A stretch of 64,000 bases of DNA from Acidimicrobiales bacterium (GTDB lineage: Bacteria; Actinomycetota; Acidimicrobiia; Acidimicrobiales; CATQHL01), in the NCBI GenBank assembly GCA_965204655.1, contig OZ241998.1, positions 44,427 through 108,426 on the forward strand. Reading direction: 5' to 3'. The translations under genes and the position numbers were made by a program. The notes below the pieces were generated by a model, which had not been told where the DNA came from, did no database searches, and saw only the letters and a list, made by a program, of their open reading frames with translations. The first letter of the stretch is position 1; each line of letters begins with the position of its first letter. Positions 26,317-39,451 of this stretch are shown here, one piece after another.

Positions 26317-27276
26317 ATGACTTGGACGAACTTGAGGAATGCCCGATTGTTGAGGACGTCAGTGGTGCTGGCGGCGCTGGCGGGAATGCTTTCTTGTTCC
26401 TCCTGCGCCGACCCCTCCGATGAAACCCCCGCCGGGGAATCTCTTCCCCCGATGTTCGCTGACGCAGACTCTGGGGAAGGAGTTTTCTCATCAAGCGTCG
26501 ATCTAGCGGAAGCAGCCGCCGAGATCGCCGACCCCAACGCCGAGCCCAAAACGGCGCTGGGGCGCCTGCGGGCCCGCTACTTCCCGAAGTGGTCTTCTGA
26601 TCTGGACTGGGCGTTCCCACCCGATGTGTGCGAGAGCCCTTGGGAACTAGACGCCATCGCCGTAGGGGTGGCCTATGCCGACTCACGGGTACTGGGCGAC
26701 GTCCACAAGGCGGCCGCCCTGGCGGTCATGCGCTACGAACTATTTACCTCCCGCGCCATGTTCGAGCCGAGTGTGCTTTCGCAAATCTGCCTCTCAACGG
26801 TCTCCCTGCCCCCCGCTCGTACGACAAACCTGGCGGTTCTGGCGTCCTATATAGACAGCGGCGCCCGCCGAACTGAAATCCCAAGTCACCCCTCTTCAGT
26901 CGAGATAATCGCCACCGCCCCGGCAGCGGTCTTGGCTGCCGCCTGCGTGAAGCCCGGTTACGCCACCGTCCTCTCCGCAGATTCTGTAGTGGTGAGTGAG
27001 CCTCAGGCGGCTGTTCGTCTGCAGACCTACCTGCTGACGCTGGCTTCCGGTCAGGAGGACGAGGTGGCAGACGTTACCTTGCGCGTCGCCCGCCTGTTCC
27101 ATCGTCCGGCGGATGGCTGCGAAGAACTCGTAGAATGGTTGGGCGAATGGAGGCTTCGGGTGGAAGCGTGGATTGCCGAAGGTCGGTTGTGGAACGCCGC
27201 CGATGCGGTGATCACCCAAGAAGAACTCTGCAGCGGAGAACATAAGGCTGAGGATTGCCCGCGCAATTGGATGTGA
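26317..27276 (+). CDS. hypothetical lipoprotein / secreted protein
   Basis: N-terminal RLLRTSVVLAALAGMLSCSSC signal with a lipobox-like Cys. I recognise no family. Its stop overlaps the start of the next gene (TGATG). Confidence 0.55.
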   Translation: MTWTNLRNARLLRTSVVLAALAGMLSCSSCADPSDETPAGESLPPMFADADSGEGVFSSSVDLAEAAAEIADPNAEPKTALGRLRARYFPKWSSDLDWAFPPDVCESPWELDAIAVGVAYADSRVLGDVHKAAALAVMRYELFTSRAMFEPSVLSQICLSTVSLPPARTTNLAVLASYIDSGARRTEIPSHPSSVEIIATAPAAVLAAACVKPGYATVLSADSVVVSEPQAAVRLQTYLLTLASGQEDEVADVTLRVARLFHRPADGCEELVEWLGEWRLRVEAWIAEGRLWNAADAVITQEELCSGEHKAEDCPRNWM

Positions 27277-29555
27277 TGAGAATCAGGCTCAAAGACAATC
27301 CAACTAAACCACCTAGCAGGTTGCGCAGACGCAGTTGCCTGACAACGGCTATCTGCCTGTTGTTGATCACGCTGGTGGCCGCTCCGTTCTCAACCGAAAC
27401 CCTGCCCGGCCCGCTCAAGGACTTGGCAGCGCCTTCCCCGGTGCGGGCTCAAGATCCGGCGCCGGACGACACTGACGATGACGACACTGACGAACCGGCC
27501 TATACCACGGGTACTCCCGCTTCTTGCCCGAGTTCACCCATCGGGTGGGTGACAAGGAGCGAAAACTGCGAATTGAACATTCCCGTTCCTTGTCCTACGG
27601 GCTATCCGAACCTCTCTTTGTCTTTTCCTGCGTACTGCTACACGGAGGCTTCAGGTGAGGCTTCCAAACCTCCGGAGTGTTCCAGCCCAGGGGTGAGCAA
27701 TGCGGTGGTCATTTCGGTCAACGCCAGGACTTGTCGAATACATGTGTTGCGTACCTGCCCGGCCGGGGTCTTGCTCAGAGAGGGTTGGACGGATGGCACG
27801 GACTGGGATGAAGACAGGGACGGCGACGTCGATACCGCGTACGACGCCAATGACGACGACCTAGTTGACGACGAACATCACTACTTGAGGTGCAAGGCGA
27901 TTCAACGCCGTTCATGGACCTGCCCGGACGGCTATTTGACAAGTAACCAATTCAATTCGTGTTACCGCCCAAGCAGCGGAGAACTAGCGGAAGGTACGAC
28001 GCATCCGGCTTGTGACACCATCTCCGGCGCTCCCGCCTTCACGGTGCTGGAATGCGGAAGTTACGCAGGTGGCGACTACGACAATTCCAGAACGTGTCCC
28101 AGCGTTTCGAGCAGTTTCACGGCTGCGACAGGCGGGGCTTCAGCCCTCTACTGGTGTACCTTTGATTCCGCAAAATTGAACGTGGATTGCAACAGGACAA
28201 CCGTACCGAGCGGAGCCGACTGCGCCGTCAATACGGCGTACTGTTTGATGCGGGCGAGCCGGACAGGAGGTTGCGACGCAATCCTAAGAAACTTGACTTG
28301 CGCTCGCCTTCAGGCAGCGTACGTAGACGCAACCAACAAGGAAACGGCCGGGCAGAACGCCAGCCGCAGCGGATGTTCTCCTTGTTTAGTGCTGCCCTTT
28401 GCGAGCGTGTCGGGGAGTTGTCCCGATGAGATCACCGGTCAACCTACGAACAGTTTGGCTAATCGGGCTTATATTGCCAGCGTCAAAAGCAACGGAGGGC
28501 ATCTAAGAAGGGGTTCTTCTAGTTGCCAAAACCCTCCGCCTGGCCGCTTAGAGATGAGATCGCTTCACCAAACGAGGCTGCCGGTAGTGAACATAGACTT
28601 AATACTCACCTTTAGGGATATTCCGGAATTTTCTTACAGTTATAGTCCTAGGTACGACAATCCAATAAACGTTTACGGCAGGAATACGATATATGAGAAT
28701 AGATACATCAATATCCTAACGGATGATGAAACGATTAGGCTTGCCAGAATTCCGACAGGTACGCAGACGTCCTGGTCTAGTGTAGGGGAGTGTGCCGTTG
28801 ATTTTGCCCCCGTGTTCTTCATTAAAGTGGAAGAACTCTGGCCGGGTAATAGCGCAGATCATAGAACGAGAATAATCAATCTATTTGGGTCGGATGCATT
28901 GGACTGGTGGAACGATCTGACGACGGAAGAAAAAACTAGGTTGAATACAGCGTATGGCCAGAATCTCTACTCGGCGGAACACAATTGCCATTTGGAGCCG
29001 CCGATCTGGTGTAAGTGGAAGCCGGAGAAGGCGGGCTATTACAGTGTGACTGGTTTGACTATTGCACGAGCTACAGAAAAGGAATTTGCTTTGAGAAATC
29101 CTAGTACTGGCGAGCGCATACCGACTTCAGGTGAATCATTCGACCTCTGGGAAGCAGTATTCCCGATAACACGAAAGCAATCCACGATTGCGAATCAGCT
29201 AAGAGATTATTTTGACGGTGCCAAGATTCAAATTCCGAGTTCAATCTGGCACTCTAGTGGAAGCAGCCAGACTTCTGACCATGAAGGTAATCAAATTACA
29301 GTTTACTATGATTATGCTAGTGCTATAACAAAGATAATAGATTCCGGCGGCAACACAATCACGCTAGGAGACAACGGTAGTATAAACGACGAGGTAACGG
29401 CCGCAATTCTAATGGGGAAAATAGATCCGGAAGCTCTAAATTCTTTCGTAATAGGAGGAAGTGGCAGCCGAGACTACGGGATTTATACCGAGACTGAACC
29501 TATCGGTGTGCAGGTTAACGAAGTACGAGTTCTTACTCGCAAACCTTCAGGTTAA
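27276..29555 (+). CDS. large secreted cysteine-rich protein of unknown function
   Basis: ATG at 27276 shares its A with the upstream TGA. It has a signal/TM segment (CLTTAICLLLITLVAAPF) and an acidic stretch. I count 23 Cys in the next about 365 residues, with a recurrent [TSP]-C-P motif. The C-terminal about 330 aa are Cys-poor, Asn/Ile/Tyr-rich and low in GC. Confidence 0.65.
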   Translation: MRIRLKDNPTKPPSRLRRRSCLTTAICLLLITLVAAPFSTETLPGPLKDLAAPSPVRAQDPAPDDTDDDDTDEPAYTTGTPASCPSSPIGWVTRSENCELNIPVPCPTGYPNLSLSFPAYCYTEASGEASKPPECSSPGVSNAVVISVNARTCRIHVLRTCPAGVLLREGWTDGTDWDEDRDGDVDTAYDANDDDLVDDEHHYLRCKAIQRRSWTCPDGYLTSNQFNSCYRPSSGELAEGTTHPACDTISGAPAFTVLECGSYAGGDYDNSRTCPSVSSSFTAATGGASALYWCTFDSAKLNVDCNRTTVPSGADCAVNTAYCLMRASRTGGCDAILRNLTCARLQAAYVDATNKETAGQNASRSGCSPCLVLPFASVSGSCPDEITGQPTNSLANRAYIASVKSNGGHLRRGSSSCQNPPPGRLEMRSLHQTRLPVVNIDLILTFRDIPEFSYSYSPRYDNPINVYGRNTIYENRYINILTDDETIRLARIPTGTQTSWSSVGECAVDFAPVFFIKVEELWPGNSADHRTRIINLFGSDALDWWNDLTTEEKTRLNTAYGQNLYSAEHNCHLEPPIWCKWKPEKAGYYSVTGLTIARATEKEFALRNPSTGERIPTSGESFDLWEAVFPITRKQSTIANQLRDYFDGAKIQIPSSIWHSSGSSQTSDHEGNQITVYYDYASAITKIIDSGGNTITLGDNGSINDEVTAAILMGKIDPEALNSFVIGGSGSRDYGIYTETEPIGVQVNEVRVLTRKPSG

Positions 29556-33337: not shown

Positions 33338-34954
33338 CTACCCACTGGTTGACCCTTCCGCTCCCTGCTTGTCGATGTTCTCAAGGACTTCGGAAACATC
33401 GGTCCACCCTTTGCCTTCGATGGGGCGTAGACAACCCCAAGCGTTGAGAGCGCAAGCAGGATCGGCTTTGAGGGCTCGCATGTTGTCTGATCCGAACCTG
33501 TCTTCTGAATTGAATCCGATGTGGAGACCGTGAAGGGCGGTGAAACTGGTTTCTCCCAGAGCGGCGACCAGGGACTCGCGTGTCAAGGAGATTCCTGCTT
33601 TTGAAATTGCGCCGAAGATTACGTCGAGCGCGTCGCACATCGACATCATCAGTACCCAGGCGTCGGTGTGGTGCCGATAGGAAAAGGGCTCGACGTCCAA
33701 GCTGTTGCGAAGGGTATGGCATCCCTGGTCCAAGCCTGTCAGCGGGTCTCCCGGTGTTCTCCAAGAACTGGCTTGGACGAGATTCACGGATTGGCGGTCG
33801 GGTGCCCTGCCCAAGATCAGACTGGCCGTCTGGATGTCGTTTACTATCCAGGTAGGAAACCAATCGATCAAGTCGGCCTTGATCATGAGGCGACGCGTAT
33901 GCGCCCAGTTGCTGTCGGACACTACGGCAGTGATTCCCCCCGCCTGCATCTGAGCGGCCATGTTCGCGTAGAAATCGTCCATAGCGGTTAGAGTTTCCAC
34001 GGCCTCTTCGCTGAGGGGTGTATCTCCGGTACCGGCTTCATAGTGCCTTTTTTGCTCTTCCAGGAGCAGGATTCGAATATCTTCGAACGCCTCAGGTATT
34101 GGAATATTGGCTTCGATTCGAAGCCCCAGACTTTCAGCAAAGGCGGCAATTTCCGCGACCTTTGCATTGGTGTTATCTGTTTCGGGGTCAGTGGGTTTGG
34201 TGTACAGGAGAGCCAATCGATCGCTCGGCCCTATTTCGCCAACGTCAGAGGCTGTTATGAGGCTGCCCTTGAATTGATACTGGCTGGAGCCGCGGTCGTC
34301 GAAGAGAAGTCCGCCTGACATGGCGAAATACTCTTCTGAGAGAGAAGAGTTGATGGACAGCGTCGGGATTCCGGCGGCTAAGGTCAGACAATTGAAGAGT
34401 ACTTCGCTCATTCGCAGTGACAGAATCATTAAGGGTTGCTGCCCGGGCAACTCCGTGCACATTCTTATGATTTCCTCTTCGGCGTTGGCAACGTCCCAAA
34501 TGTTGATCAGGGGCTCAAAACAGTTGCCGTTTACTCCGCCATGCCTGTTTATCTCGTTGATGTAGGACTGCATTATCAGGTTGAGGGGTTCTAGATCCAA
34601 GACCTCCAAGCCAATCTGGGCTAGATTTTGGAGGTCGGGCTCTATCCATGCGATTTTGAACCTTCGCTGAGAGCCCTCCTCCCCGGAGAGGGCGTCCGAG
34701 CAGTTGCCGCCGCCCATCGGGCTTCCGCCTGCTGCCCTGATTCCTTCTCCTGGTCTGGTGTCGGCCAGGGTTCCGACTTGAGCCGATGCGTCCTCGGCTG
34801 TTGGAGTTCCGCTTTCTCCAGGGGTCCCTCCGCCTCCTCCGCAGGCGGACGCTAGAAGCGAGATTGCGAGGAGACCGGCAACTAGCAGCCGGACGTTTTG
34901 GGGCGATGGTCTGCGGTTTTGGAGTTTGGGGTCTGAGCGTAAGTTGATATTCAT
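33338..34954 (-). CDS. type-1 periplasmic-binding-fold lipoprotein (LivK-like)
   Basis: Start taken at the ATG at 34954, which overlaps the upstream stop (TGATG). It has an LLASACGGGGG lipobox and YINEINRHGGVNGNCFEP, which resembles the INxxGG[IV]xG motif of LivK-family binding proteins. Confidence 0.6.
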   Translation of the reverse strand: MNINLRSDPKLQNRRPSPQNVRLLVAGLLAISLLASACGGGGGTPGESGTPTAEDASAQVGTLADTRPGEGIRAAGGSPMGGGNCSDALSGEEGSQRRFKIAWIEPDLQNLAQIGLEVLDLEPLNLIMQSYINEINRHGGVNGNCFEPLINIWDVANAEEEIIRMCTELPGQQPLMILSLRMSEVLFNCLTLAAGIPTLSINSSLSEEYFAMSGGLLFDDRGSSQYQFKGSLITASDVGEIGPSDRLALLYTKPTDPETDNTNAKVAEIAAFAESLGLRIEANIPIPEAFEDIRILLLEEQKRHYEAGTGDTPLSEEAVETLTAMDDFYANMAAQMQAGGITAVVSDSNWAHTRRLMIKADLIDWFPTWIVNDIQTASLILGRAPDRQSVNLVQASSWRTPGDPLTGLDQGCHTLRNSLDVEPFSYRHHTDAWVLMMSMCDALDVIFGAISKAGISLTRESLVAALGETSFTALHGLHIGFNSEDRFGSDNMRALKADPACALNAWGCLRPIEGKGWTDVSEVLENIDKQGAEGSTSG

Positions 34955-37764
34955 CAGTAACCAGGGGGATAGTTGGGGTTTTCGGAGGCCGAAGCCATAA
35001 GGGATGCGGCTATGTCTGGCGACATTGCTTGCGCAGCCAGCATCGTGAAGGCGATCGGCTGCACCACTGCCCGAGATGTGGCGTCTATGTGGATTCTCCA
35101 TGGCCAGCGCGCGGCAGCCGAGGACGTTGCGCCTACCAGCGCTAGGTTTGACCCGGGGGAGACTGCTATTTGTCCTGCACGCTGAATCAGAATGTCGTGA
35201 CCCGGTCCCACCACCAAAACGTCGAGTTCGGCATCTCCACCGGTTGGTTCGGATTTGCTTGCTCTGACGAGAAGTTCCTCAAGATGGGGAGAGTCGAAAC
35301 TCGTGGACATTACGCGTTCCCAGCCCGGGCCTTGGGGCGTATCCACTCCTAGGGCTATGACTCTCACGCTTTCGGCCATGGGTGATGAGCCGAGTGCTTC
35401 CACTATGGCGGAGAGCAGGCTGGTGGACTGGGGTTCCGGTCCGGAAATCGCCAAACAACCGATTTCTTCGAAGTTCAGCAGCAAAGGCCCTTCTACTGTG
35501 TCTCCCACTGGGACGAGAGCCGGGCACAGCGATAAGCCTTGCCCGAAGGAGTCGAGGTGTTCTATCGTGACCCCTTCGGCCAATTCCAGTACGTAGCCTC
35601 CGGAGGCTGCCACCCAGTAGTCGGGTGCTTCGGTGGGCTGATCAAGCAGAACCTCAAAGCCGTAGGTACCCACGCGTACGGCAACCACCTTGGGTTTTCT
35701 TCTGAGTTGCGCCACTGTGACAGACCGCAAGTGCCGCATGGCTGCTTCTATGAGACGCAGGGAGTCCATCCTTGCGCTTTGCCTGAGCGATTCCTCTAGA
35801 GGGTCGTGCGCTTGCTCTCCGCTGTCCCCCCGGCGGCGGCGTAGTCGTGAAAGCTGCCAAAGCAACATTGCGTCGCCGATGGCGGTGCCGGCGAGGCTGC
35901 GCCGCGAAGCGATGATACTTTGCTCGGAAATTCTCGTTGAAGGATCGGCGCCGGTCATTGAAGGCATGAACTTCGGCAGAGGGGGCGCTTCTTGTTCTTC
36001 GAATTCCTCCGGAGCCAGGGGAGGAGGTTCGTAGGCGGAGGGAGCGGAAGGTTCGTAGCCGCCGGCGGCTGGGGTTTCGTATGTGTACGGGGTTTCTGGA
36101 GTTGGCGGCGGCGGTTCGTAGGCGGCGGGAGCCCCCGCAGATGCCGGTGGCGGCTCATATGCGGAGAGAGGGGGAGTGTCGGGGGGAGGCGGCGGGGGTT
36201 CTTGGGGGGCGGGCGGTGCTTCGTATGTGTGCGGGGCTTCTGGAGGTGCTGGTGGTTGTTCGTAGGCGGGCGAAGCGGGCGTGTCCAGCGCTTGCGTCGG
36301 TTCTTCTTGGACCGGAGGTGGAGGGGGCGCCACCGGGGGAGGGGCATGAGTGGTGGTCGGAGCGTCGGGCCCAGCACCGGCGGAGGGTTGAGGTTGAGGG
36401 TCGTAGTAGGTCGCCTCCTCCGGCTCTCGGCCCTCGGGCACCTCCGGCAACGATTGGTCAGCAGATGGCTGTTGGCTAGGTTCTGCCGTGAATGTCTGAG
36501 CGGCCTCTGCGGCCGCCGGGGCAGCAACGGGAGGGGGGGGAGAAACGGGGGGGTGTGTATCGGACGTCGGCGCCTCCGGAATCCCTGGCGGCTGCCCCGC
36601 TCCCAAACCGGGCAACCCTTCGATGTCTGGGAGGGCGGCCGTTTCAAGTTCAGCGCCATGCGCCAGCCCTCTCCAGAAGGGGACTACTTCTGCAGGATCG
36701 GGTTCTCTGCCCCAAGCGGCGTAGAGGAAACGTTCAGCTAATGTCCAGAGGAACACCGGATCAGGCTTGCCCCAGGGCATCGGATCCCCTGGAAGCATAA
36801 GGGCGCTGCCTATGGGTACAAGGTCGTCAGCCTCCAGAGACGCTATGGTTGGATACGCGGCGTTAAGAGTACGTAGTTCTTTCCATCGGGCAGGTGAGTT
36901 CAAGAATTGCGCAGAGATGCTGCGCAGAGTGTCGTCGGGGCGGGAGATGTAGTAGGCGCGCACCGGAATGATCTCCGGCGCTTCGGCGGGGAGGACTCTC
37001 GTTGAATCGCGAGGGATAACCTCTTCAGTGACTGGGGTGTCCGTAATGACTGGGGTGTCCATATACCCTTCAGCCGAGCGCTGCCACTCCTGACCTTCCG
37101 TTCCGTAGTGGCTGAACTCTTCTTGGCTGGCTACCCCTTCGCCCCCCCCTGTTTCAGGGAAGTAGCCGGGTGTCTCAGCGTGTAAGGGGGAGCCTCCACT
37201 GGAGCCTTGGGGAATTGTTTGATAGTCGGGAACGTCTTCGGTGTCTGAGGAGGTGACTATCACCTGGGTCTGGAAGTCGCTGACTGGCTCCTCAAAAATA
37301 GGTGGACTCTGTCGGTACCAGGGCAGTTCGGATTCGCCCTCCCCTGAGGGTGGGTGTGTCTCTATTGTGTCTAGTCCCTGACCAGGGCCGCTAGAACGAC
37401 GTCTTCCAGCCTTTGAGGTTTTAGGGCGGCGGGCGCCCCGCCTTGATCGGCTCACGAGCCCGACGACGAGGGCGATGAGGGCTCCGAGCCATGCGAGTGC
37501 CAGTACCCCTGAAACGATGTTGACAATGTTTTCTGAAGGGAGCGTTCCATCGGAAATAAGTTCTTGTGTGTTGGGCCATTCCGACGGCAGAGCGAATTGC
37601 AGAGGGCCGAGAATAAAGTTGGCCGCAAGTGGCAGAGCGATGAGTATGAGCAGCGCAATTGCGTTTCTAAGCAAGGCAACTCTTGCTGACTTCTCAACGT
37701 TTTCCTCAGATACTGGATTGTGGCTCTCAGTTTCTTGCTCGTTCCCCTGGGGGATTTGTGCCAT
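34954..37764 (-). CDS. 936-aa membrane protein: 2 TM, LysM-like segment, Pro/Tyr-rich repeats, degenerate FtsK/SpoIIIE-like C-terminal domain
   Basis: TM segments at aa 33-55 and 83-104, followed by RSRRGARRPKTSKAGRRR. LysM-like YYISRPDDTLRSISAQF...LVPIGSALMLP (nt 36790-36963). xAYEPPP repeats (nt 35965-36582). C-terminus: PVGDTVEGPLLLNFEEIGCLAISGPEPQSTSLLSAIVEAL...VRVIALGVD aligns by eye with the FtsK block LGKDI.G.PVV.DL...HLLVAGTTGSGKSV..N..I.SL...V.FI.IDPK but lacks GKS/T. Confidence 0.6.
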   Translation of the reverse strand: MAQIPQGNEQETESHNPVSEENVEKSARVALLRNAIALLILIALPLAANFILGPLQFALPSEWPNTQELISDGTLPSENIVNIVSGVLALAWLGALIALVVGLVSRSRRGARRPKTSKAGRRRSSGPGQGLDTIETHPPSGEGESELPWYRQSPPIFEEPVSDFQTQVIVTSSDTEDVPDYQTIPQGSSGGSPLHAETPGYFPETGGGEGVASQEEFSHYGTEGQEWQRSAEGYMDTPVITDTPVTEEVIPRDSTRVLPAEAPEIIPVRAYYISRPDDTLRSISAQFLNSPARWKELRTLNAAYPTIASLEADDLVPIGSALMLPGDPMPWGKPDPVFLWTLAERFLYAAWGREPDPAEVVPFWRGLAHGAELETAALPDIEGLPGLGAGQPPGIPEAPTSDTHPPVSPPPPVAAPAAAEAAQTFTAEPSQQPSADQSLPEVPEGREPEEATYYDPQPQPSAGAGPDAPTTTHAPPPVAPPPPPVQEEPTQALDTPASPAYEQPPAPPEAPHTYEAPPAPQEPPPPPPDTPPLSAYEPPPASAGAPAAYEPPPPTPETPYTYETPAAGGYEPSAPSAYEPPPLAPEEFEEQEAPPLPKFMPSMTGADPSTRISEQSIIASRRSLAGTAIGDAMLLWQLSRLRRRRGDSGEQAHDPLEESLRQSARMDSLRLIEAAMRHLRSVTVAQLRRKPKVVAVRVGTYGFEVLLDQPTEAPDYWVAASGGYVLELAEGVTIEHLDSFGQGLSLCPALVPVGDTVEGPLLLNFEEIGCLAISGPEPQSTSLLSAIVEALGSSPMAESVRVIALGVDTPQGPGWERVMSTSFDSPHLEELLVRASKSEPTGGDAELDVLVVGPGHDILIQRAGQIAVSPGSNLALVGATSSAAARWPWRIHIDATSRAVVQPIAFTMLAAQAMSPDIAASLMASASENPNYPPGY
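36076..36245 (-). repeat. 144-nt-period internal duplication in the Pro-rich coding region
   Basis: ttcgtatgtgtacggggtttctggag (36076-36101) recurs as ttcgtatgtgtgcggggcttctggag (36220-36245), 48 codons apart. ggttcgtaggcgg-type units recur between them. Confidence 0.8.
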
Positions 37765-37915: not shown

Positions 37916-38470
37916 TTAAGAAGTTGACGCGATGATGGGGCATTCGCCAAGATGTTTGATGCTCTGTTCCTGGCTGCCGTCCGGCCTGATAAGAACGGCT
38001 TCAGCTGCCCCCCTGGCAAAAATAGGTTGTCGTTCTCTGCCTAGGCTCAGCATCGACCTCAACCTGTAGCCAGAGACCACGAGAACCTCCACCCGGGACC
38101 CTACGCAGTCCACGGAGGCGACGAGAATATCCTCCCCGTAGATGAGGGGGACTTTCCCCACGCGGTCTTCCGCAGCCTGCTTGGCGTCAGCTAGAGAACC
38201 TCCGCTTGCGATTGTCACGGAGGCGACTCGAGCAGCTTCGCTGGCCGCATGTGCTGCGTCCTGGCGGGCGGCGATGATACGAGGGGCGTCGTAGGCGATG
38301 CTGCTGAGCAGTATCAGAGCGACTGCGATGATGGCGATGAAAGGGGCGTACACGCCTCTTTCATCTTGGCGTGCTTCCTCACGGGTATGTCCTTTTTTCG
38401 AAGGAAGCGGAGATCCGATTGCTGCCAGGAGGCGCCTAGATCGACGGGCGGGCGTCTTGCGAGTTGACAT
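37916..38470 (-). CDS. TadG/TadE-like pseudopilin (Tad N-terminal domain)
   Basis: ERGVYAPFIAIIAVALILLSSIAYDAPRIIAARQDAAHAASEAARVAS matches the pattern of the Flp pilus-assembly TadE/G-like N-terminal domain. Confidence 0.65.
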   Translation of the reverse strand: MSTRKTPARRSRRLLAAIGSPLPSKKGHTREEARQDERGVYAPFIAIIAVALILLSSIAYDAPRIIAARQDAAHAASEAARVASVTIASGGSLADAKQAAEDRVGKVPLIYGEDILVASVDCVGSRVEVLVVSGYRLRSMLSLGRERQPIFARGAAEAVLIRPDGSQEQSIKHLGECPIIASTS

Positions 38471-38973
38471 CAGGTCGGCCTGGAGCGGTAGGGATCGAGG
38501 GTGGCGACGCCCACCAACAACCGCTCAGCGCTGAAGTAGGGTACCCCGAAACCACCTAAGAGTTTTGGGGGAATTCGGCATCTCAGGAATACGTAGACTG
38601 TTCCTGCGGGCGGGACGGAGTTGCTACTTCCTGCTGCGACTTCGTTGTCGTCGACGTCGGTGAAGACTATGTTGGCGTCTCCGACTAAGTCGTTGTTGCA
38701 GAAGACGCTGTTGAAGACGTTTGCCTCTTCCATCGATTCCAGGCTGGCTCGTACAACGGCAAGAGCGCCATTGTCGCCGTCGATGTTCTGACAGCAGATA
38801 GCTGCGGTTCGGGCGGCTCGATTGGCCGCGGCTTGCAGGGCTTGCTCGATGCGGACAGAGTCTGTGAGCGCAGAGAGGAGGACGATCATGAGCATCAAGG
38901 CAGGGAACAAGATCGCCACTCCTATGGCGGCTCCTGAACCGGCCTCGCAGCGTTCCCGAAACGACTTGCGCAT
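38470..38973 (-). CDS. TadE-like pseudopilin
   Basis: N-terminus EAGSGAAIGVAILFPALMLMIVLLSAL resembles the TadE signature (G-x-AxVEFALVxPxLL). Its stop overlaps the next start (TGATG). Confidence 0.6.
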   Translation of the reverse strand: MRKSFRERCEAGSGAAIGVAILFPALMLMIVLLSALTDSVRIEQALQAAANRAARTAAICCQNIDGDNGALAVVRASLESMEEANVFNSVFCNNDLVGDANIVFTDVDDNEVAAGSSNSVPPAGTVYVFLRCRIPPKLLGGFGVPYFSAERLLVGVATLDPYRSRPT

Positions 38974-38974
38974 T

Positions 38975-39451
38975 TCAGCAAGTCCAGGGGTCGGATTCAG
39001 TGAGTTCTGCTGCAGTCAGGTTGTCTAGCGGGCCGCAGGACAGAGCCGTAAGTTCCACTTCTCCCATTATGGGAGAGATGGTGCTAGCGAAGATCAGAGC
39101 CTGCACGACGCCTCTTCCCTCTTCCACGATTATTGCAGGGGGGCGGGTTTCTATCACGGTGCTGGATGAAGCAACCAGAGATATACGTGCTGCCAGCCTC
39201 CCTTCGGTTTCTCGCTCGCTCGCAAAGGCGCTCTGTGCAGCGATTACAGCGGCGTCGGCAGCCGACTGAACGGCGGTGCGGCCCATTGCCACGATCACGA
39301 GGTGAACTCCCATGAAGATCGTGAAGATGACCCCAAGGAACAGAATGGCAACGGGCATCGCCTCGCCGCGGGCGTCGTTGCCTGCTGCGCCGAGTGCTTT
39401 GCCCAGTTTGCTTAAGCAGGAAGAGCGTCCATGCGCCGGCGGACTTTTCAT
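38975..39451 (-). CDS. TadE-like pseudopilin
   Basis: ARGEAMPVAILFLGVIFTIFMGVHLVIVAMGRTAVQSAADAA, a TadE-like hydrophobic N-terminus. Confidence 0.55.
   Translation of the reverse strand: MKSPPAHGRSSCLSKLGKALGAAGNDARGEAMPVAILFLGVIFTIFMGVHLVIVAMGRTAVQSAADAAVIAAQSAFASERETEGRLAARISLVASSSTVIETRPPAIIVEEGRGVVQALIFASTISPIMGEVELTALSCGPLDNLTAAELTESDPWTC

What the first reader, a model, noticed from the sequence alone, without database searches (positions are those of the whole stretch)
34954..37764. 936-aa protein: TM hairpin, LysM-like segment, Pro/Tyr repeat linker and an apparently inactivated FtsK-like domain
Seen: two TM segments followed by a strongly basic stretch, a LysM-like segment (nt 36790-36963), about 200 aa of xAYEPPP-type repeats, and a C-terminal region of about 320 aa. 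Its core (CPALVPVGDTVEGPLLLNFEEIGCLAISGPEPQSTSLLSAIVEALGSS...VRVIALGVD...ELDVLVVGPG) lines up by eye with the Walker A and Walker B neighbourhood of FtsK/SpoIIIE ATPases, but GKS/T and the acidic Walker B residues are replaced. The overall TM, Pro-rich linker and P-loop-domain layout also mirrors FtsK. The positive-inside rule puts everything after TM2 in the cytoplasm, which conflicts with a peptidoglycan-binding LysM. Either the topology prediction or the LysM call is wrong. A pseudo-ATPase scaffold attached to a Tad machine would be new to me.
Basis: partly seen in the sequence, partly recalled or inferred. Interest (0 to 1): 0.7.

Follow-up and report, generated by a model that had tools for sequence, protein, structure and literature searches.

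The report
Dead FtsK/EccC-like ATPase in Tad operon
This is a real, strongly conserved gene at the end of a Tad pilus operon in a sponge-associated Acidimicrobiales bacterium; it encodes a cut-down member of a widespread but unstudied actinobacterial family that joins LysM units to a catalytically dead FtsK/EccC-type ATPase domain, and here the LysM part appears to have moved into the cytoplasm.

Summary
The 936-aa ORF (34954-37764, minus strand) is real and under purifying selection (dN/dS 0.06-0.11). The described features are present: a TM hairpin, a basic stretch, a LysM-like module, a Pro-rich acidic linker with seven YExP motifs, and a 336-aa C-terminal region.

The C-terminal domain ("X") has an ASCE/RecA-like fold. 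Its top Foldseek hit is the FtsK motor. Its best sequence-profile hit in the PDB is the degenerate "DUF" ATPase domain of EccC (hhalign P=0.0017; 0 of 150 shuffles reach the score). None of 217 family members has a Walker A lysine, and Gly-Pro replaces the Walker B acids.

An exhaustive profile search found about 1,000 remote relatives. Those examined have four TMs, external LysM, X, then wHTH+BTAD. In 9 of 9 contexts they are the last gene of a tad operon.

The window's clade, found only in sponge-type Acidimicrobiales, has lost TM3, TM4 and the DNA-binding tail. Some members have no TM at all.

Function is untested. The most likely role is a non-catalytic, membrane-associated adaptor of the Tad platform.

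The parts
34954..37764 (-). Whole gene, 936 aa. Its stop codon overlaps the ATG of the next gene by 1 nt (TGATG).
37594..37680 (-). TM1 (aa ~29-57).
   Evidence: Kyte-Doolittle 19-mer peak 2.48. Homologous to TM1 of relatives, with the shared loop motif G-x-P-L-x-x-x-LPS.
37450..37527 (-). TM2 (aa ~80-105).
   Evidence: Kyte-Doolittle peak 2.61.
37396..37449 (-). Basic stretch after TM2 (aa 106-123; 10 K/R in aa 106-125). By the positive-inside rule this places the downstream chain in the cytoplasm.
37285..37323 (-). Conserved short motif P-W-Y-R-Q-x-P-P-I-F-E-E-P (aa 148-160). It is also kept in the TM-less variants.
36790..36963 (-). LysM-derived unit 1 (aa 268-325).
   Evidence: Clade HMM aligns to Pfam-LysM regions of relatives. 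60+ invariant columns across the module. dN/dS 0.06-0.11. Pfam itself does not hit it.
36661..36765 (-). Truncated LysM-type unit 2 (aa 334-367; the LWTLAE...AWGREP...PFWRGL motif).
   Evidence: Aligns to the second and third LysM units of relatives (FWxIA...AWGRxP...PYW).
35965..36639 (-). Acidic Pro-rich linker (aa 376-600; 31% Pro). Its length is highly variable between homologues.
36010..36270 (-). Seven degenerate x-A/T-Y-E-x-P-P motifs (aa 499-585).
   Evidence: No strong DNA tandem repeat.
35827..35901 (-). Remnant of TM4 plus an Arg-rich stretch (aa 622-646; LAGTAIGDAMLLWQLSRLRRRRG, with an invariant Asp).
   Evidence: Maximum 17-mer Kyte-Doolittle score is 0.94 here, against a median of 2.02 in remote relatives. 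93% of relatives reach >=1.6 there, against 1% in the clade. Also.
34990..35829 (-). Domain X: degenerate FtsK/EccC-DUF-like P-loop-fold domain (aa ~646-925).
   Evidence: AlphaFold pLDDT 74.7. Foldseek. PDB profile hits to EccC DUF. hhalign with shuffles. 1039 relatives.
35386..35457 (-). Walker-A-equivalent strand-loop-helix (aa 770-793; CLAIS-GPEPQST-SLLSAIVEALGS). There is no Lys, and the loop residues vary between homologues.
   Evidence: 0 of 217 have GK[ST].
35194..35226 (-). Walker-B-equivalent strand LDVLVV followed by G-P-G-H-D (aa 847-857). Gly-Pro sits where Asp-Glu would be.
37916..39451 (-). Three TadE/TadG-like minor pilin genes directly upstream (38975-39451, 38470-38973, 37916-38470).
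   Evidence: Conserved upstream neighbours.
39566..40488 (-). Two paralogous Flp-type pilin-like genes (40174-40488, 104 aa; 39566-40096, 176 aa).
   Evidence: They share an N-terminal hydrophobic segment. No Pfam hit.
40678..46523 (-). Core tad genes: cpaB/rcpC-like (45738-46523), tadZ-like (44162-45628), cpaF/tadA (42492-44051), tadB (41544-42440), tadC (40678-41547).
   Evidence: Pfam SAF, ParA-like, T2SSE and T2SSF. NCBIfam CpaE_hom_Actino, weak.
46764..47255 (+). Prepilin peptidase (TadV-type, Peptidase_A24), transcribed divergently.
33338..34954 (-). Downstream lipoprotein gene (538 aa from the ATG at 34954; lipobox LLASAC). It is start/stop-coupled to the target gene and is its most constant neighbour in this clade.
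   Evidence: Present in 48 of 50 loci. Only a weak Peripla_BP_6 hit.

Best explanation
**What it is (shown).** The gene encodes a derived, shortened member of a large Actinomycetota protein family that sits at the end of tad (Flp pilus) operons.

The ancestral architecture, as seen in remote relatives, runs in this order:
1. TM1, external loop, TM2, a basic loop, then TM3.
2. One to three external LysM units and a Pro-rich stalk.
3. TM4 and an Arg-rich stretch.
4. A cytoplasmic domain X.
5. An OmpR-type wHTH plus BTAD (a SARP-type DNA-binding module).

Domain X is a catalytically dead P-loop-fold domain of the FtsK/EccC lineage. It most resembles the membrane-proximal DUF domain of the type VII secretion ATPase EccC.

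In the sponge-associated Acidimicrobiales clade that includes this window, TM3, TM4 and the wHTH+BTAD tail have been lost and the linker has become a long acidic Pro/Tyr-rich segment.

**What follows from that (inferred).** Everything after TM2 lies in the cytoplasm: the LysM-derived module, the linker and X.

**Proposed mechanism (inferred, not shown).** The protein cannot hydrolyse ATP, cannot bind DNA through a SARP module and probably cannot reach peptidoglycan. I propose it acts as a non-catalytic adaptor held at the membrane by the TM hairpin, or soluble in the TM-less variants. X would provide an oligomerisation or docking surface, as proposed for the EccC DUF, towards the cytoplasmic Tad platform (CpaF hexamer, TadZ-like protein, TadB/C). 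The invariant LysM-derived module and the PWYRQxPPIFEEP motif would bind a cytoplasmic ligand or partner.
For: **Gene reality and selection**
- Intact ORF.
- 71 close homologues, 52-70% identical apart from one 99%-identical fragment.
- dN/dS of 0.06-0.11 for the LysM-like module and for X.

**Fold of X**
- AlphaFold pLDDT 74.7, pTM 0.72.
- Foldseek against the PDB: top hit is the E. coli FtsK motor 2ius_A (E=1.1e-4, prob 0.99, 327 columns). RadA, PilT, HP0525, EssC 5fv0, TcpA, EccC 4n1a and CpaF follow.

**Sequence link of X to EccC**
- A broad X profile against all PDB sequences gives the EccC5 DUF crystal structure 8rin_A as best hit (E=0.026). T. curvata EccC 4nh0 (0.054) and EccC5 7np7 (0.24) follow. 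All three align at the P-loop-equivalent position.
- hhalign of 61 X sequences against 9 EccC DUF sequences: score 31.2, P=0.0017. 150 column shuffles gave mean 12.9, sd 2.8, max 18.9. The reversed alignment gave 13.0. Against the active D1 domain P=0.22.
- The EccC5 DUF is reported as a degenerate, non-hydrolysing ATPase-like domain that may still hexamerise (PMC11154593).

**Dead catalytic site**
- 0 of 217 family sequences have GK[ST] at the P-loop position. Walker B Asp-Glu is replaced by Gly/Ala-Pro in most.

**Family and architecture**
- 1039 representative proteins at E<=1e-3.
- Pfam LysM, Trans_reg_C and BTAD are found in the relatives.
- The relatives' sequences show the TM layout.

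**Linkage to tad genes**
- Remote relatives are the last tad-operon gene in 4 of 4 metagenome contigs and 5 of 5 plasmids.
- A Cutibacterium acnes plasmid tad table lists a LysM+BTAD gene in the same position (PMC3666418).
- In the clade, 34 of 40 loci have tad genes upstream on the same strand.

**Cytoplasmic placement**
- The clade has only the TM1/TM2 hairpin. The TM4 position scores 0.94 against a median of 2.02 in relatives.
- Several lineages (L017, L018, L022, L047, L053) lack the hairpin. For L017, L018 and L047 all three frames show no other hidden hydrophobic segment.
- The cytoplasmic TadZ-like and CpaF proteins of this operon carry similar Pro/Tyr-rich tails.

**No DNA-binding tail**
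- An HMM of the relatives' wHTH+BTAD tails finds nothing in the six-frame translation of the whole window. The same HMM recovers 98 relatives.
Against: - **Each line of evidence for FtsK/EccC ancestry is weak alone.** Foldseek TM-scores are only about 0.3 (rmsd about 15 A over full-length alignments). RecA/RadA and PilT score almost as well as FtsK. PDB profile E-values are 0.026-0.24. The significant hhalign stretch is 54 columns long. Pfam FtsK_SpoIIIE never hits any of 33 members.
- **Topology is not firmly established.** It rests on Kyte-Doolittle hydropathy and the positive-inside rule, not on a dedicated predictor or an experiment.
- **The LysM fold was not confirmed.** The AlphaFold model of that module has pLDDT 51.
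- **No data bear on binding partners.** The scaffold role is inferred from what the protein cannot do.
- **The tad linkage is not the tightest one in this clade.** The most constant neighbour is the downstream lipoprotein (48 of 50 loci), not the tad genes, and 6 of 40 loci have no tad gene within 10 kb upstream.
- **Operon membership is not proven.** A 151-nt gap separates the gene from the last tadE-like gene, whereas relatives overlap it.
Confidence: 0.6

Rival explanations
1. The protein belongs functionally with the downstream lipoprotein and ABC transporter rather than with the pilus. In this reading X and the LysM-derived module form the cytoplasmic part of a sensing or regulatory device for that lipoprotein or transporter. 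The position next to the tad genes would be only a historical leftover.
For: - The stop and start codons overlap (TGATG) with the lipoprotein gene.
- The lipoprotein follows the gene in 48 of 50 clade loci, including the 6 loci with no tad gene within 10 kb.
- The same order continues into an ABC transporter in L001 and L002.
- A 151-nt gap separates the gene from the last tadE-like gene.
Against: - 34 of 40 loci still have tad genes directly upstream on the same strand.
- The ancestral family is tied to tad operons in 9 of 9 contexts and has unrelated downstream genes there.
- No promoter-like or terminator-like site was found in the gap.
- The lipoprotein has no informative family match.
Confidence: 0.15
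2. The LysM-like module is still outside the cell and binds peptidoglycan, anchoring the Tad machine in the wall as LysM proteins do in other pilus systems. The simple topology prediction would then be wrong, for example because the TM4 remnant and another weakly hydrophobic segment still cross the membrane.
For: - The module is homologous to bona fide LysM units that lie outside the cell in relatives.
- It is extremely conserved.
- The segment LAGTAIGDAMLLWQL is moderately hydrophobic and is followed by RRRR, as TM4 is in relatives.
Against: - No hydrophobic segment lies between the 10-K/R stretch and the module, so no odd number of crossings is available.
- The TM4-equivalent scores 0.94 and carries an invariant Asp.
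- Lineages exist with no TM and no signal peptide at all.
- If the remnant alone crossed the membrane, X would end up outside, against the Arg-rich flank.
- From my own knowledge: E. coli Kbp/YgaU is a cytoplasmic LysM protein. The relatives' LysM units match its NCBIfam model best.
Confidence: 0.1
3. Domain X is a generic RecA-like or Rossmann-like alpha/beta domain with no specific descent from FtsK/EccC. The resemblance to the FtsK Walker neighbourhood would be convergent or due to shared fold constraints.
For: - Foldseek E-values for RadA, PilT, HP0525 and KaiC fall within a factor of about ten of the FtsK value, and all TM-scores are low.
- Pfam finds no FtsK_SpoIIIE signal in 33 members.
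- hhalign against single FtsK or EccC sequences, and against EccC D1, is not significant.
Against: - Only FtsK-type hits align across the whole model, including the N-terminal alpha/beta subdomain (317-354 columns, against 157-204 for RadA).
- Three of the seven best PDB sequence hits are EccC, all in the same register.
- The hhalign score against the EccC DUF is 6.5 sd above the shuffles.
- The order of TM, basic stretch, helix, then degenerate domain is shared with EccC.
Confidence: 0.12
4. The gene is a decaying remnant of a LysM-X-SARP regulator and has no function of its own.
For: - It has lost two TMs and the DNA-binding tail relative to the family.
- Public gene calls are often fragmented.
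Against: - dN/dS is 0.06-0.11 in both modules at dS up to about 2.
- Intact long open frames are present in most complete loci, across several genera.
- The fragmentation is explained by gene callers and assemblies failing in the Pro-rich repeat. L002 has a continuous 1027-aa ORF.
Confidence: 0.02

Closest known systems
DUF domain of the type VII secretion ATPase EccC (e.g. M. tuberculosis EccC5 DUF, PDB 8RIN; PMC11154593)
   Same: - It is a P-loop-NTPase-like fold of the FtsK/SpoIIIE lineage with degenerate Walker motifs and no expected ATPase activity.
- In the ancestral architecture it sits just inside the membrane, after a TM helix, a basic stretch and a helix.
- It is the best sequence-profile match in the PDB, in the same register.
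   Different: - It is not followed by three active FtsK-type ATPase domains.
- It sits in a tad operon, not a type VII secretion locus.
- Similarity is remote (E=0.026; 54 well-aligned columns).
- In the window protein the preceding TM helix has degenerated.
FtsK/SpoIIIE DNA translocase motor (alpha+beta domains, PDB 2IUS)
   Same: - It is the top structural match over the whole model.
- The hairpin-plus-strand motif PALVPVGDTxEGPLLLNxEEIGCLxxSG lines up with [35 protein letters not shown].
   Different: - X has no Walker A Lys/Ser, no Walker B acids, no Pfam PF01580 match and no gamma domain.
- The FtsK-like order of TM, Pro-rich linker and motor is not homologous, because the linker is extracellular in the ancestral architecture.
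LysM/BTAD proteins annotated at the end of actinobacterial tad loci (e.g. C. acnes plasmid PAGK_2369; Nonomuraea WP_327591325; Arthrobacter pAL1 WP_011928069)
   Same: - They share domain X (E 1e-28 to 1e-13), the LysM module, the TM1-loop-TM2 hairpin and the position after the three tadE/G-like genes.
   Different: - The window protein lacks TM3, TM4 and the wHTH+BTAD tail, and has a much longer acidic Pro/Tyr linker.
- The relatives themselves are functionally uncharacterised. I found only a table entry about them in the searchable literature.
E. coli Kbp/YgaU (BON-LysM), a cytoplasmic LysM protein (from my own knowledge; NCBIfam NF008399)
   Same: - It is a precedent for a LysM domain working inside the cytoplasm.
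- The relatives' LysM units match this NCBIfam model best.
   Different: - The window protein has no BON domain.
- The window module itself does not reach any LysM model threshold.
- Its ligand is unknown.
TadZ/CpaE, the atypical ParA/MinD-like protein of Tad systems
   Same: - It is another nucleotide-binding-fold protein in the same operon that is used for assembly or localisation rather than as a motor.
- The window's TadZ-like protein also lacks a canonical Walker A (STEGSPGAST).
   Different: - It belongs to a different P-loop lineage (SIMIBI, not ASCE/FtsK-like).
- It is a separate gene.

Membership tests
FtsK/SpoIIIE ATPases (Pfam PF01580; FtsK-HerA superfamily) | ASCE/RecA-like alpha/beta core with a strand-loop-helix at the nucleotide site | tested here: met
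   AlphaFold model. Foldseek top hit is the FtsK motor, prob 0.99, with EssC, EccC and TcpA also listed. TM-scores are low (~0.3).
FtsK/SpoIIIE ATPases (Pfam PF01580; FtsK-HerA superfamily) | Walker A GxxxxGK[ST] | tested here: not met
   The window has S-G-P-E-P-Q-S-T at this position. 0 of 217 family sequences have GK[ST] there.
FtsK/SpoIIIE ATPases (Pfam PF01580; FtsK-HerA superfamily) | Walker B hhhhDE | tested here: not met
   The window has LDVLVV-G-P. Most relatives have G/A-P-G.
FtsK/SpoIIIE ATPases (Pfam PF01580; FtsK-HerA superfamily) | Match to the Pfam family model | tested here: not met
   No hit at E<=10 for the window protein, for its fragments, or for 33 diverse members.
FtsK/SpoIIIE ATPases (Pfam PF01580; FtsK-HerA superfamily) | Hexameric ring that translocates DNA or protein | not testable with these tools
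   Needs a multimer prediction or biochemistry.
EccC-DUF-type degenerate ATPase domain | Detectable sequence-profile similarity to EccC DUF domains | tested here: met
   8rin_A at E=0.026 is the best of 177,635 PDB sequences. hhalign P=0.0017, and 0 of 150 shuffles reach the score. The similarity is weak and local.
EccC-DUF-type degenerate ATPase domain | Degenerate nucleotide-site motifs | tested here: met
   The degeneration of the DUF itself is described in PMC11154593.
EccC-DUF-type degenerate ATPase domain | Directly follows a TM helix and a basic or helical stalk | tested here: inconclusive
   Met in remote relatives: 93% have a TM-grade segment just upstream. In the window only a degenerate remnant remains (score 0.94).
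EccC-DUF-type degenerate ATPase domain | Followed by three FtsK-type ATPase domains, within a type VII secretion locus | tested here: not met
   The protein ends after X, and its context is a tad operon.
LysM domain (Pfam PF01476) | Match to the family model at the gathering threshold | tested here: not met
   No hit for the window protein or for the isolated fragment at E<=10.
LysM domain (Pfam PF01476) | Homology to domains that do meet the model | tested here: met
   The clade HMM hits regions of relatives that Pfam calls LysM: P0165 169-222, P0170 171-226, P0181 169-198, P0207 and P0239.
LysM domain (Pfam PF01476) | beta-alpha-alpha-beta fold | tested here: inconclusive
   AlphaFold pLDDT is 51. 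The helices are predicted but the strands are not.
LysM domain (Pfam PF01476) | Extracytoplasmic location and peptidoglycan binding | tested here: not met
   Location only, and by prediction: there is no TM between the basic stretch and the module, and TM-less variants exist. Binding cannot be tested here.
Actinobacterial tad-operon terminal LysM-X-SARP proteins | Domain X | tested here: met
   Profile hits at E 1e-28 to 1e-13 to relatives that have X in mid-protein.
Actinobacterial tad-operon terminal LysM-X-SARP proteins | Position after the tadE/G-like genes of a tad operon | tested here: met
   Window. Clade, 33 of 40 loci. Relatives, 9 of 9.
Actinobacterial tad-operon terminal LysM-X-SARP proteins | TM3 and TM4 bracketing the LysM/Pro-rich segment | tested here: not met
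Actinobacterial tad-operon terminal LysM-X-SARP proteins | C-terminal wHTH (Trans_reg_C) plus BTAD | tested here: not met
   The protein ends after X, and there is no such module anywhere in the window. A natural split of X and BTAD into two genes exists in S. alboflavus.

The most novel reading that the evidence does not exclude
**Family level.** The whole family may define an unrecognised component of Gram-positive-type Tad pili. It would be a membrane-spanning protein whose external LysM units read or grip the cell wall. Its EccC-DUF-like dead ATPase ring would dock under the TadB/C-CpaF platform. Its SARP tail would couple the state of the machine to transcription.

**This clade.** In sponge-symbiont Acidimicrobiales the device was turned inside-in. 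The LysM module would now bind a cytoplasmic ligand, such as a peptidoglycan precursor, or a protein. The matching Pro/Tyr-rich tails on this protein, the TadZ-like protein and CpaF would co-assemble the cytoplasmic platform through multivalent low-complexity contacts.
Probability: 0.15. Interest if true: 0.75.

Novelty: new variant of a known kind. Interest (0 to 1): 0.55.

Why it matters
- **An unstudied Tad component.** Tad/Flp pili of Actinomycetota lack the outer-membrane parts known from Gram-negative systems and are poorly understood. A gene that closes the operon in every context examined has escaped functional study. These contexts span orders of Actinomycetota on plasmids and metagenome contigs, and include a Cutibacterium acnes plasmid tad table from the literature.
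- **A domain with no model.** Its central domain has no Pfam or NCBIfam model.
- **Testable predictions.** Recognising that domain as a dead FtsK/EccC-type ATPase predicts no ATP turnover, possible ring formation and docking to the CpaF platform. It also links Tad and type VII secretion machinery at the level of a shared module.
- **A natural dissection.** The window's clade keeps LysM and X under strong selection although wall access and DNA binding are gone. Those two modules must therefore have a function of their own.
- **An annotation fix.** Gene callers routinely split this gene at the Pro-rich repeat.

Tried and rejected
- **Single-sequence searches.** Pfam, NCBIfam and PDB-sequence searches of the whole protein and of three fragments gave nothing useful.
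- **Clade-only profile against PDB.** No hits. Only the broadened profile A3 reached EccC.
- **hhalign against single sequences.** The family was compared with E. coli FtsK and with an EccC-like fragment. The alignments were in the expected register but not significant (P 0.16-0.5). Against the active EccC D1 domain P=0.22.
- **Pfam scan of 33 diverse X domains at E<=10.** No recurrent family.
- **AlphaFold of the LysM-like module.** pLDDT was 51, too poor for a fold search, so none was run.
- **The search for related loci with the diverse alignment.** The clade alignment was used instead, so the genome scan covers only the close clade.
- **Promoter and terminator scan of the 151-nt gap upstream.** Nothing found.
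- **Downstream lipoprotein.** Only chance-level PDB hits, a weak Peripla_BP_6 hit and a weak NCBIfam hit.
- **Literature.** I found no functional study of the LysM/BTAD tad-locus gene, only a table entry.
- **Pseudogene reading.** Rejected on dN/dS.
- **Hidden TM hairpin in the TM-less variants.** Rejected for L017, L018 and L047, where all three frames were checked.


Full report
**1. The observation**

The window carries an intact 936-codon ORF on the minus strand, 34954-37764.
- Two hydrophobic segments lie at about aa 29-57 and 80-105.
- The loop between them has no K/R. The 20 residues after TM2 hold ten K/R.
- A Pro-rich acidic segment runs from aa 376 to 600 (31% Pro). Only seven x-A/T-Y-E-x-P-P motifs are present, in aa 499-585, and there is no strong DNA tandem repeat.
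- The last 336 residues form the C-terminal region.
- Pfam, NCBIfam and a PDB sequence search find nothing for the whole protein or its pieces.

**2. Context**

The gene lies at the downstream end of a complete actinobacterial-type tad locus. In order, the locus contains:
- a divergent prepilin peptidase;
- a SAF-domain CpaB-like gene;
- a ParA-like TadZ-like gene;
- CpaF, TadB and TadC;
- two Flp-like pilin paralogues;
- three TadE/G-like genes;
- the target gene.

The target's TGA overlaps the ATG of a lipoprotein gene (TGATG). A binding protein and ABC transporter genes follow.

**3. Close homologues**

A database search with the C-terminal region returned 71 proteins. Apart from one 99%-identical fragment they are 52-70% identical, and all named ones come from Acidimicrobiia or unclassified MAGs.

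Most are called as fragments of 340-370 aa. Inspection of two loci shows why:
- The full gene exists. L002 has a continuous 1027-aa ORF with the same architecture.
- Gene callers, or assemblies (L001 has a frameshift in the repeats), break it in the Pro-rich region.

A scan of one genome per species found 50 loci. All are in Acidimicrobiales MAGs, including Candidatus Aldehydirespirator and Candidatus Poriferisodalis. The closest is 92% identical. Both conserved modules evolve under strong purifying selection, with dN/dS 0.06-0.11.

**4. The C-terminal domain (X)**

*Structure.* An AlphaFold model built on 29 sequences (pLDDT 74.7, pTM 0.72) shows an alpha/beta domain. Foldseek against the PDB ranks the E. 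coli FtsK motor first (E=1.1e-4, prob 0.99, 327 aligned columns). Other ASCE ATPases follow: RadA, PilT, HP0525, EssC, TcpA, EccC and CpaF. TM-scores are low (about 0.3) and the E-values are close together. Structure alone therefore gives the fold class and only a lean towards FtsK.

[quoted passage not shown] T. curvata EccC (0.054) and full-length EccC5 (0.24) were also among the seven hits. All aligned at the P-loop-equivalent strand-helix.

I then built an alignment of nine plasmid-borne EccC N-terminal halves. hhalign of 61 X sequences against their DUF region scored 31.2 (P=0.0017). In comparison, 150 column-shuffled versions gave 12.9 +/- 2.8 (max 18.9) and the reversed alignment gave 13.0. 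The active D1 domain gave P=0.22.

The EccC5 DUF is described as a degenerate, non-hydrolysing ATPase-like domain that may still hexamerise (PMC11154593).

- Strand C770-S774 is followed by G-P-E-P-Q-S-T and a helix.
- Strand L847-V852 is followed by G-P.
- Across 217 family sequences none has GK[ST] at the P-loop position. The loop is short and variable, and the Walker B acids are mostly Gly/Ala-Pro.

X is therefore an anciently inactivated domain, not a recent casualty.

**5. The wider family**

An exhaustive profile search of 1.84 billion representatives found 1039 proteins at E<=1e-3. Beyond the close clade, most of the listed relatives are 900-1300 aa and carry X in the middle.
- Pfam finds LysM near aa 170-360 in them, and Trans_reg_C and/or BTAD at the C-terminus.
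- Their sequences show TM1, a loop with a G-x-P-L-P...LPS motif shared with the window protein, TM2, a basic loop, TM3, LysM units, a Pro-rich stretch, TM4, an Arg-rich stretch, X, then wHTH+BTAD.
- Neither Pfam nor NCBIfam has a model for X.

In every context I examined the gene is the last one of a tad operon, usually overlapping the preceding tadE/G-like gene:
- four metagenome contigs;
- plasmids of Nonomuraea, Rhodococcus, Cellulosimicrobium, Streptomyces alboflavus (where X and BTAD are split into two genes) and Arthrobacter pAL1.

A published table of a Cutibacterium acnes plasmid tad locus lists a LysM+BTAD gene in the same place (PMC3666418). I found no functional study of it.

**6. 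The LysM question and topology**

An HMM of the clade's module hits the Pfam-positive LysM units of relatives at E 1e-9 to 1e-12. It shows that the window has one complete unit plus the first half of a second. The LysM call is therefore right by descent. AlphaFold could not confirm the fold (pLDDT 51).

The topology prediction is also right, as far as simple methods can tell.
- Relatives mostly have three or four hydrophobic segments before X. The clade has two or none.
- In the 90 residues before X, 93% of relatives have a TM-grade 17-mer (median 2.02). Only 1% of the clade does (median 0.98; window 0.94). The remnant carries an invariant Asp.
- Several clade lineages start directly with the basic stretch (MKLRRR...) and the conserved WY[RH]Q..P[IL]F[DE]EP motif, with no TM hairpin in the open frame. 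For L017, L018 and L047, scanning all three frames found no other hydrophobic segment between the last tadE-like gene and the LysM module.

The clade has thus lost both helices that used to place the LysM segment outside. The module, the linker and X are all predicted to be cytoplasmic. The cytoplasmic TadZ-like and CpaF proteins of the same operon carry similar Pro/Tyr-rich tails, which fits this placement.

No wHTH+BTAD module is encoded anywhere in the window.

**7. Linkage in the clade**

Forty loci have 10 kb of upstream sequence.
- 33 have the last tadE-like gene upstream.
- 34 have some tad gene upstream on the same strand.
- 21 reach cpaF within 10 kb.
- 6 have no tad gene in range.

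The downstream lipoprotein is present in 48 of 50 loci. It has no informative family match.

**8. Interpretation**

*Shown:*
- the gene is real and under constraint;
- X is an ASCE-fold domain without catalytic motifs, and its nearest detectable relatives are the EccC DUF and FtsK;
- the protein is a truncated member of a large family linked to tad operons;
- TM3, TM4 and the SARP tail are absent.

*Inferred:*
- the cytoplasmic location of the LysM-derived module;
- a non-catalytic adaptor role at the Tad platform, by analogy with the proposed structural and oligomerising role of the EccC DUF.

*Rivals.* A functional tie to the downstream lipoprotein and transporter is the most serious one. 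An unconventional external LysM, a merely generic RecA-like domain and gene decay are less likely, and decay is effectively excluded.

**9. Novelty**

The family is visible in RefSeq annotation as "LysM" or "BTAD" proteins. Within the models and literature I could search, the identity of its central domain and its constant place in tad operons are undescribed. The window's clade is a distinct variant of it.

The finding is moderately interesting. It is not a new kind of system, but it points to an overlooked Tad component and gives it a testable structural identity.

Noticed in passing
window 44162-44900 (TadZ-like C-terminus) and 42492-42760 (CpaF C-terminus), minus strand: Both cytoplasmic Tad proteins carry long Pro-rich tails with Tyr motifs (PQYPPPPPMPIYQEPP, HPDYPDYEVPAP). 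These resemble the linker of the target protein, so three proteins of one operon share this low-complexity feature.
   Followed up: partly
window 45560-45628, minus strand (N-terminus of the TadZ-like protein): The ParA-like protein begins MLIVYSTEGSPGASTT. It lacks the KGGxGK[ST] deviant Walker A lysines, so it too may not bind nucleotide in the usual way.
   Followed up: no
window 33338-34954, minus strand: A 538-aa lipoprotein (lipobox LLASAC) with no informative family match. Its ATG overlaps the target's stop codon, and it follows the target gene in 48 of 50 related loci, more constantly than the tad genes precede it.
   Followed up: partly
window 35955-36741, both strands; loci L001 and L002: The GC- and Pro-rich repeat region yields long spurious ORFs in other frames and on the opposite strand. 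Public gene calls split the gene there or call the wrong strand (for example a 493-aa minus-strand call in L002), and L001 has a frameshift inside the repeats.
   Followed up: yes
L003, L004/L005 (metagenome contigs); L073 (Arthrobacter pAL1) and other plasmid loci: Many tad operons that end in the LysM-X-SARP gene sit on plasmids or next to VirD4/TraG-like and VirB4-like genes, a primase and WhiB. This suggests Tad-type pili that belong to actinobacterial mobile elements.
   Followed up: no
L072 (Streptomyces alboflavus plasmid pMDJK44.1), 7711-11474: Here the family gene is split into a LysM+X protein and a separate BTAD protein with overlapping stop and start codons. It is a natural intermediate between the fused form and the tail-less form in the window.
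   Followed up: no
window 39566-40096 and 40174-40488, minus strand: There are two paralogous Flp-like pilin genes with a near-identical N-terminal hydrophobic segment. The longer one has three Cys-containing repeats (AYTVEA[HN]CT...W[ST][AS]G[AS]C) at its C-terminus. Neither has a Pfam hit.
   Followed up: no
window 27255-29555, plus strand: A 766-aa Cys-rich protein with a signal-like N-terminus and no family match lies in the lowest-GC stretch of the window (0.51, against about 0.60-0.66 elsewhere). It is possibly acquired DNA.
   Followed up: no
L032, L044, L057 (one contig, CBDCMW010000002.1); L011 and L012: Some Acidimicrobiales genomes carry two or three complete copies of the tad-plus-target locus.
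   Followed up: no
L063 and L070 (mycobacterial plasmids): Stand-alone genes of 385-394 aa encode only the TM segments plus the DUF domain of EccC, followed by a separate eccCb or hypothetical gene. The degenerate domain therefore also exists on its own in type VII secretion loci.
   Followed up: no
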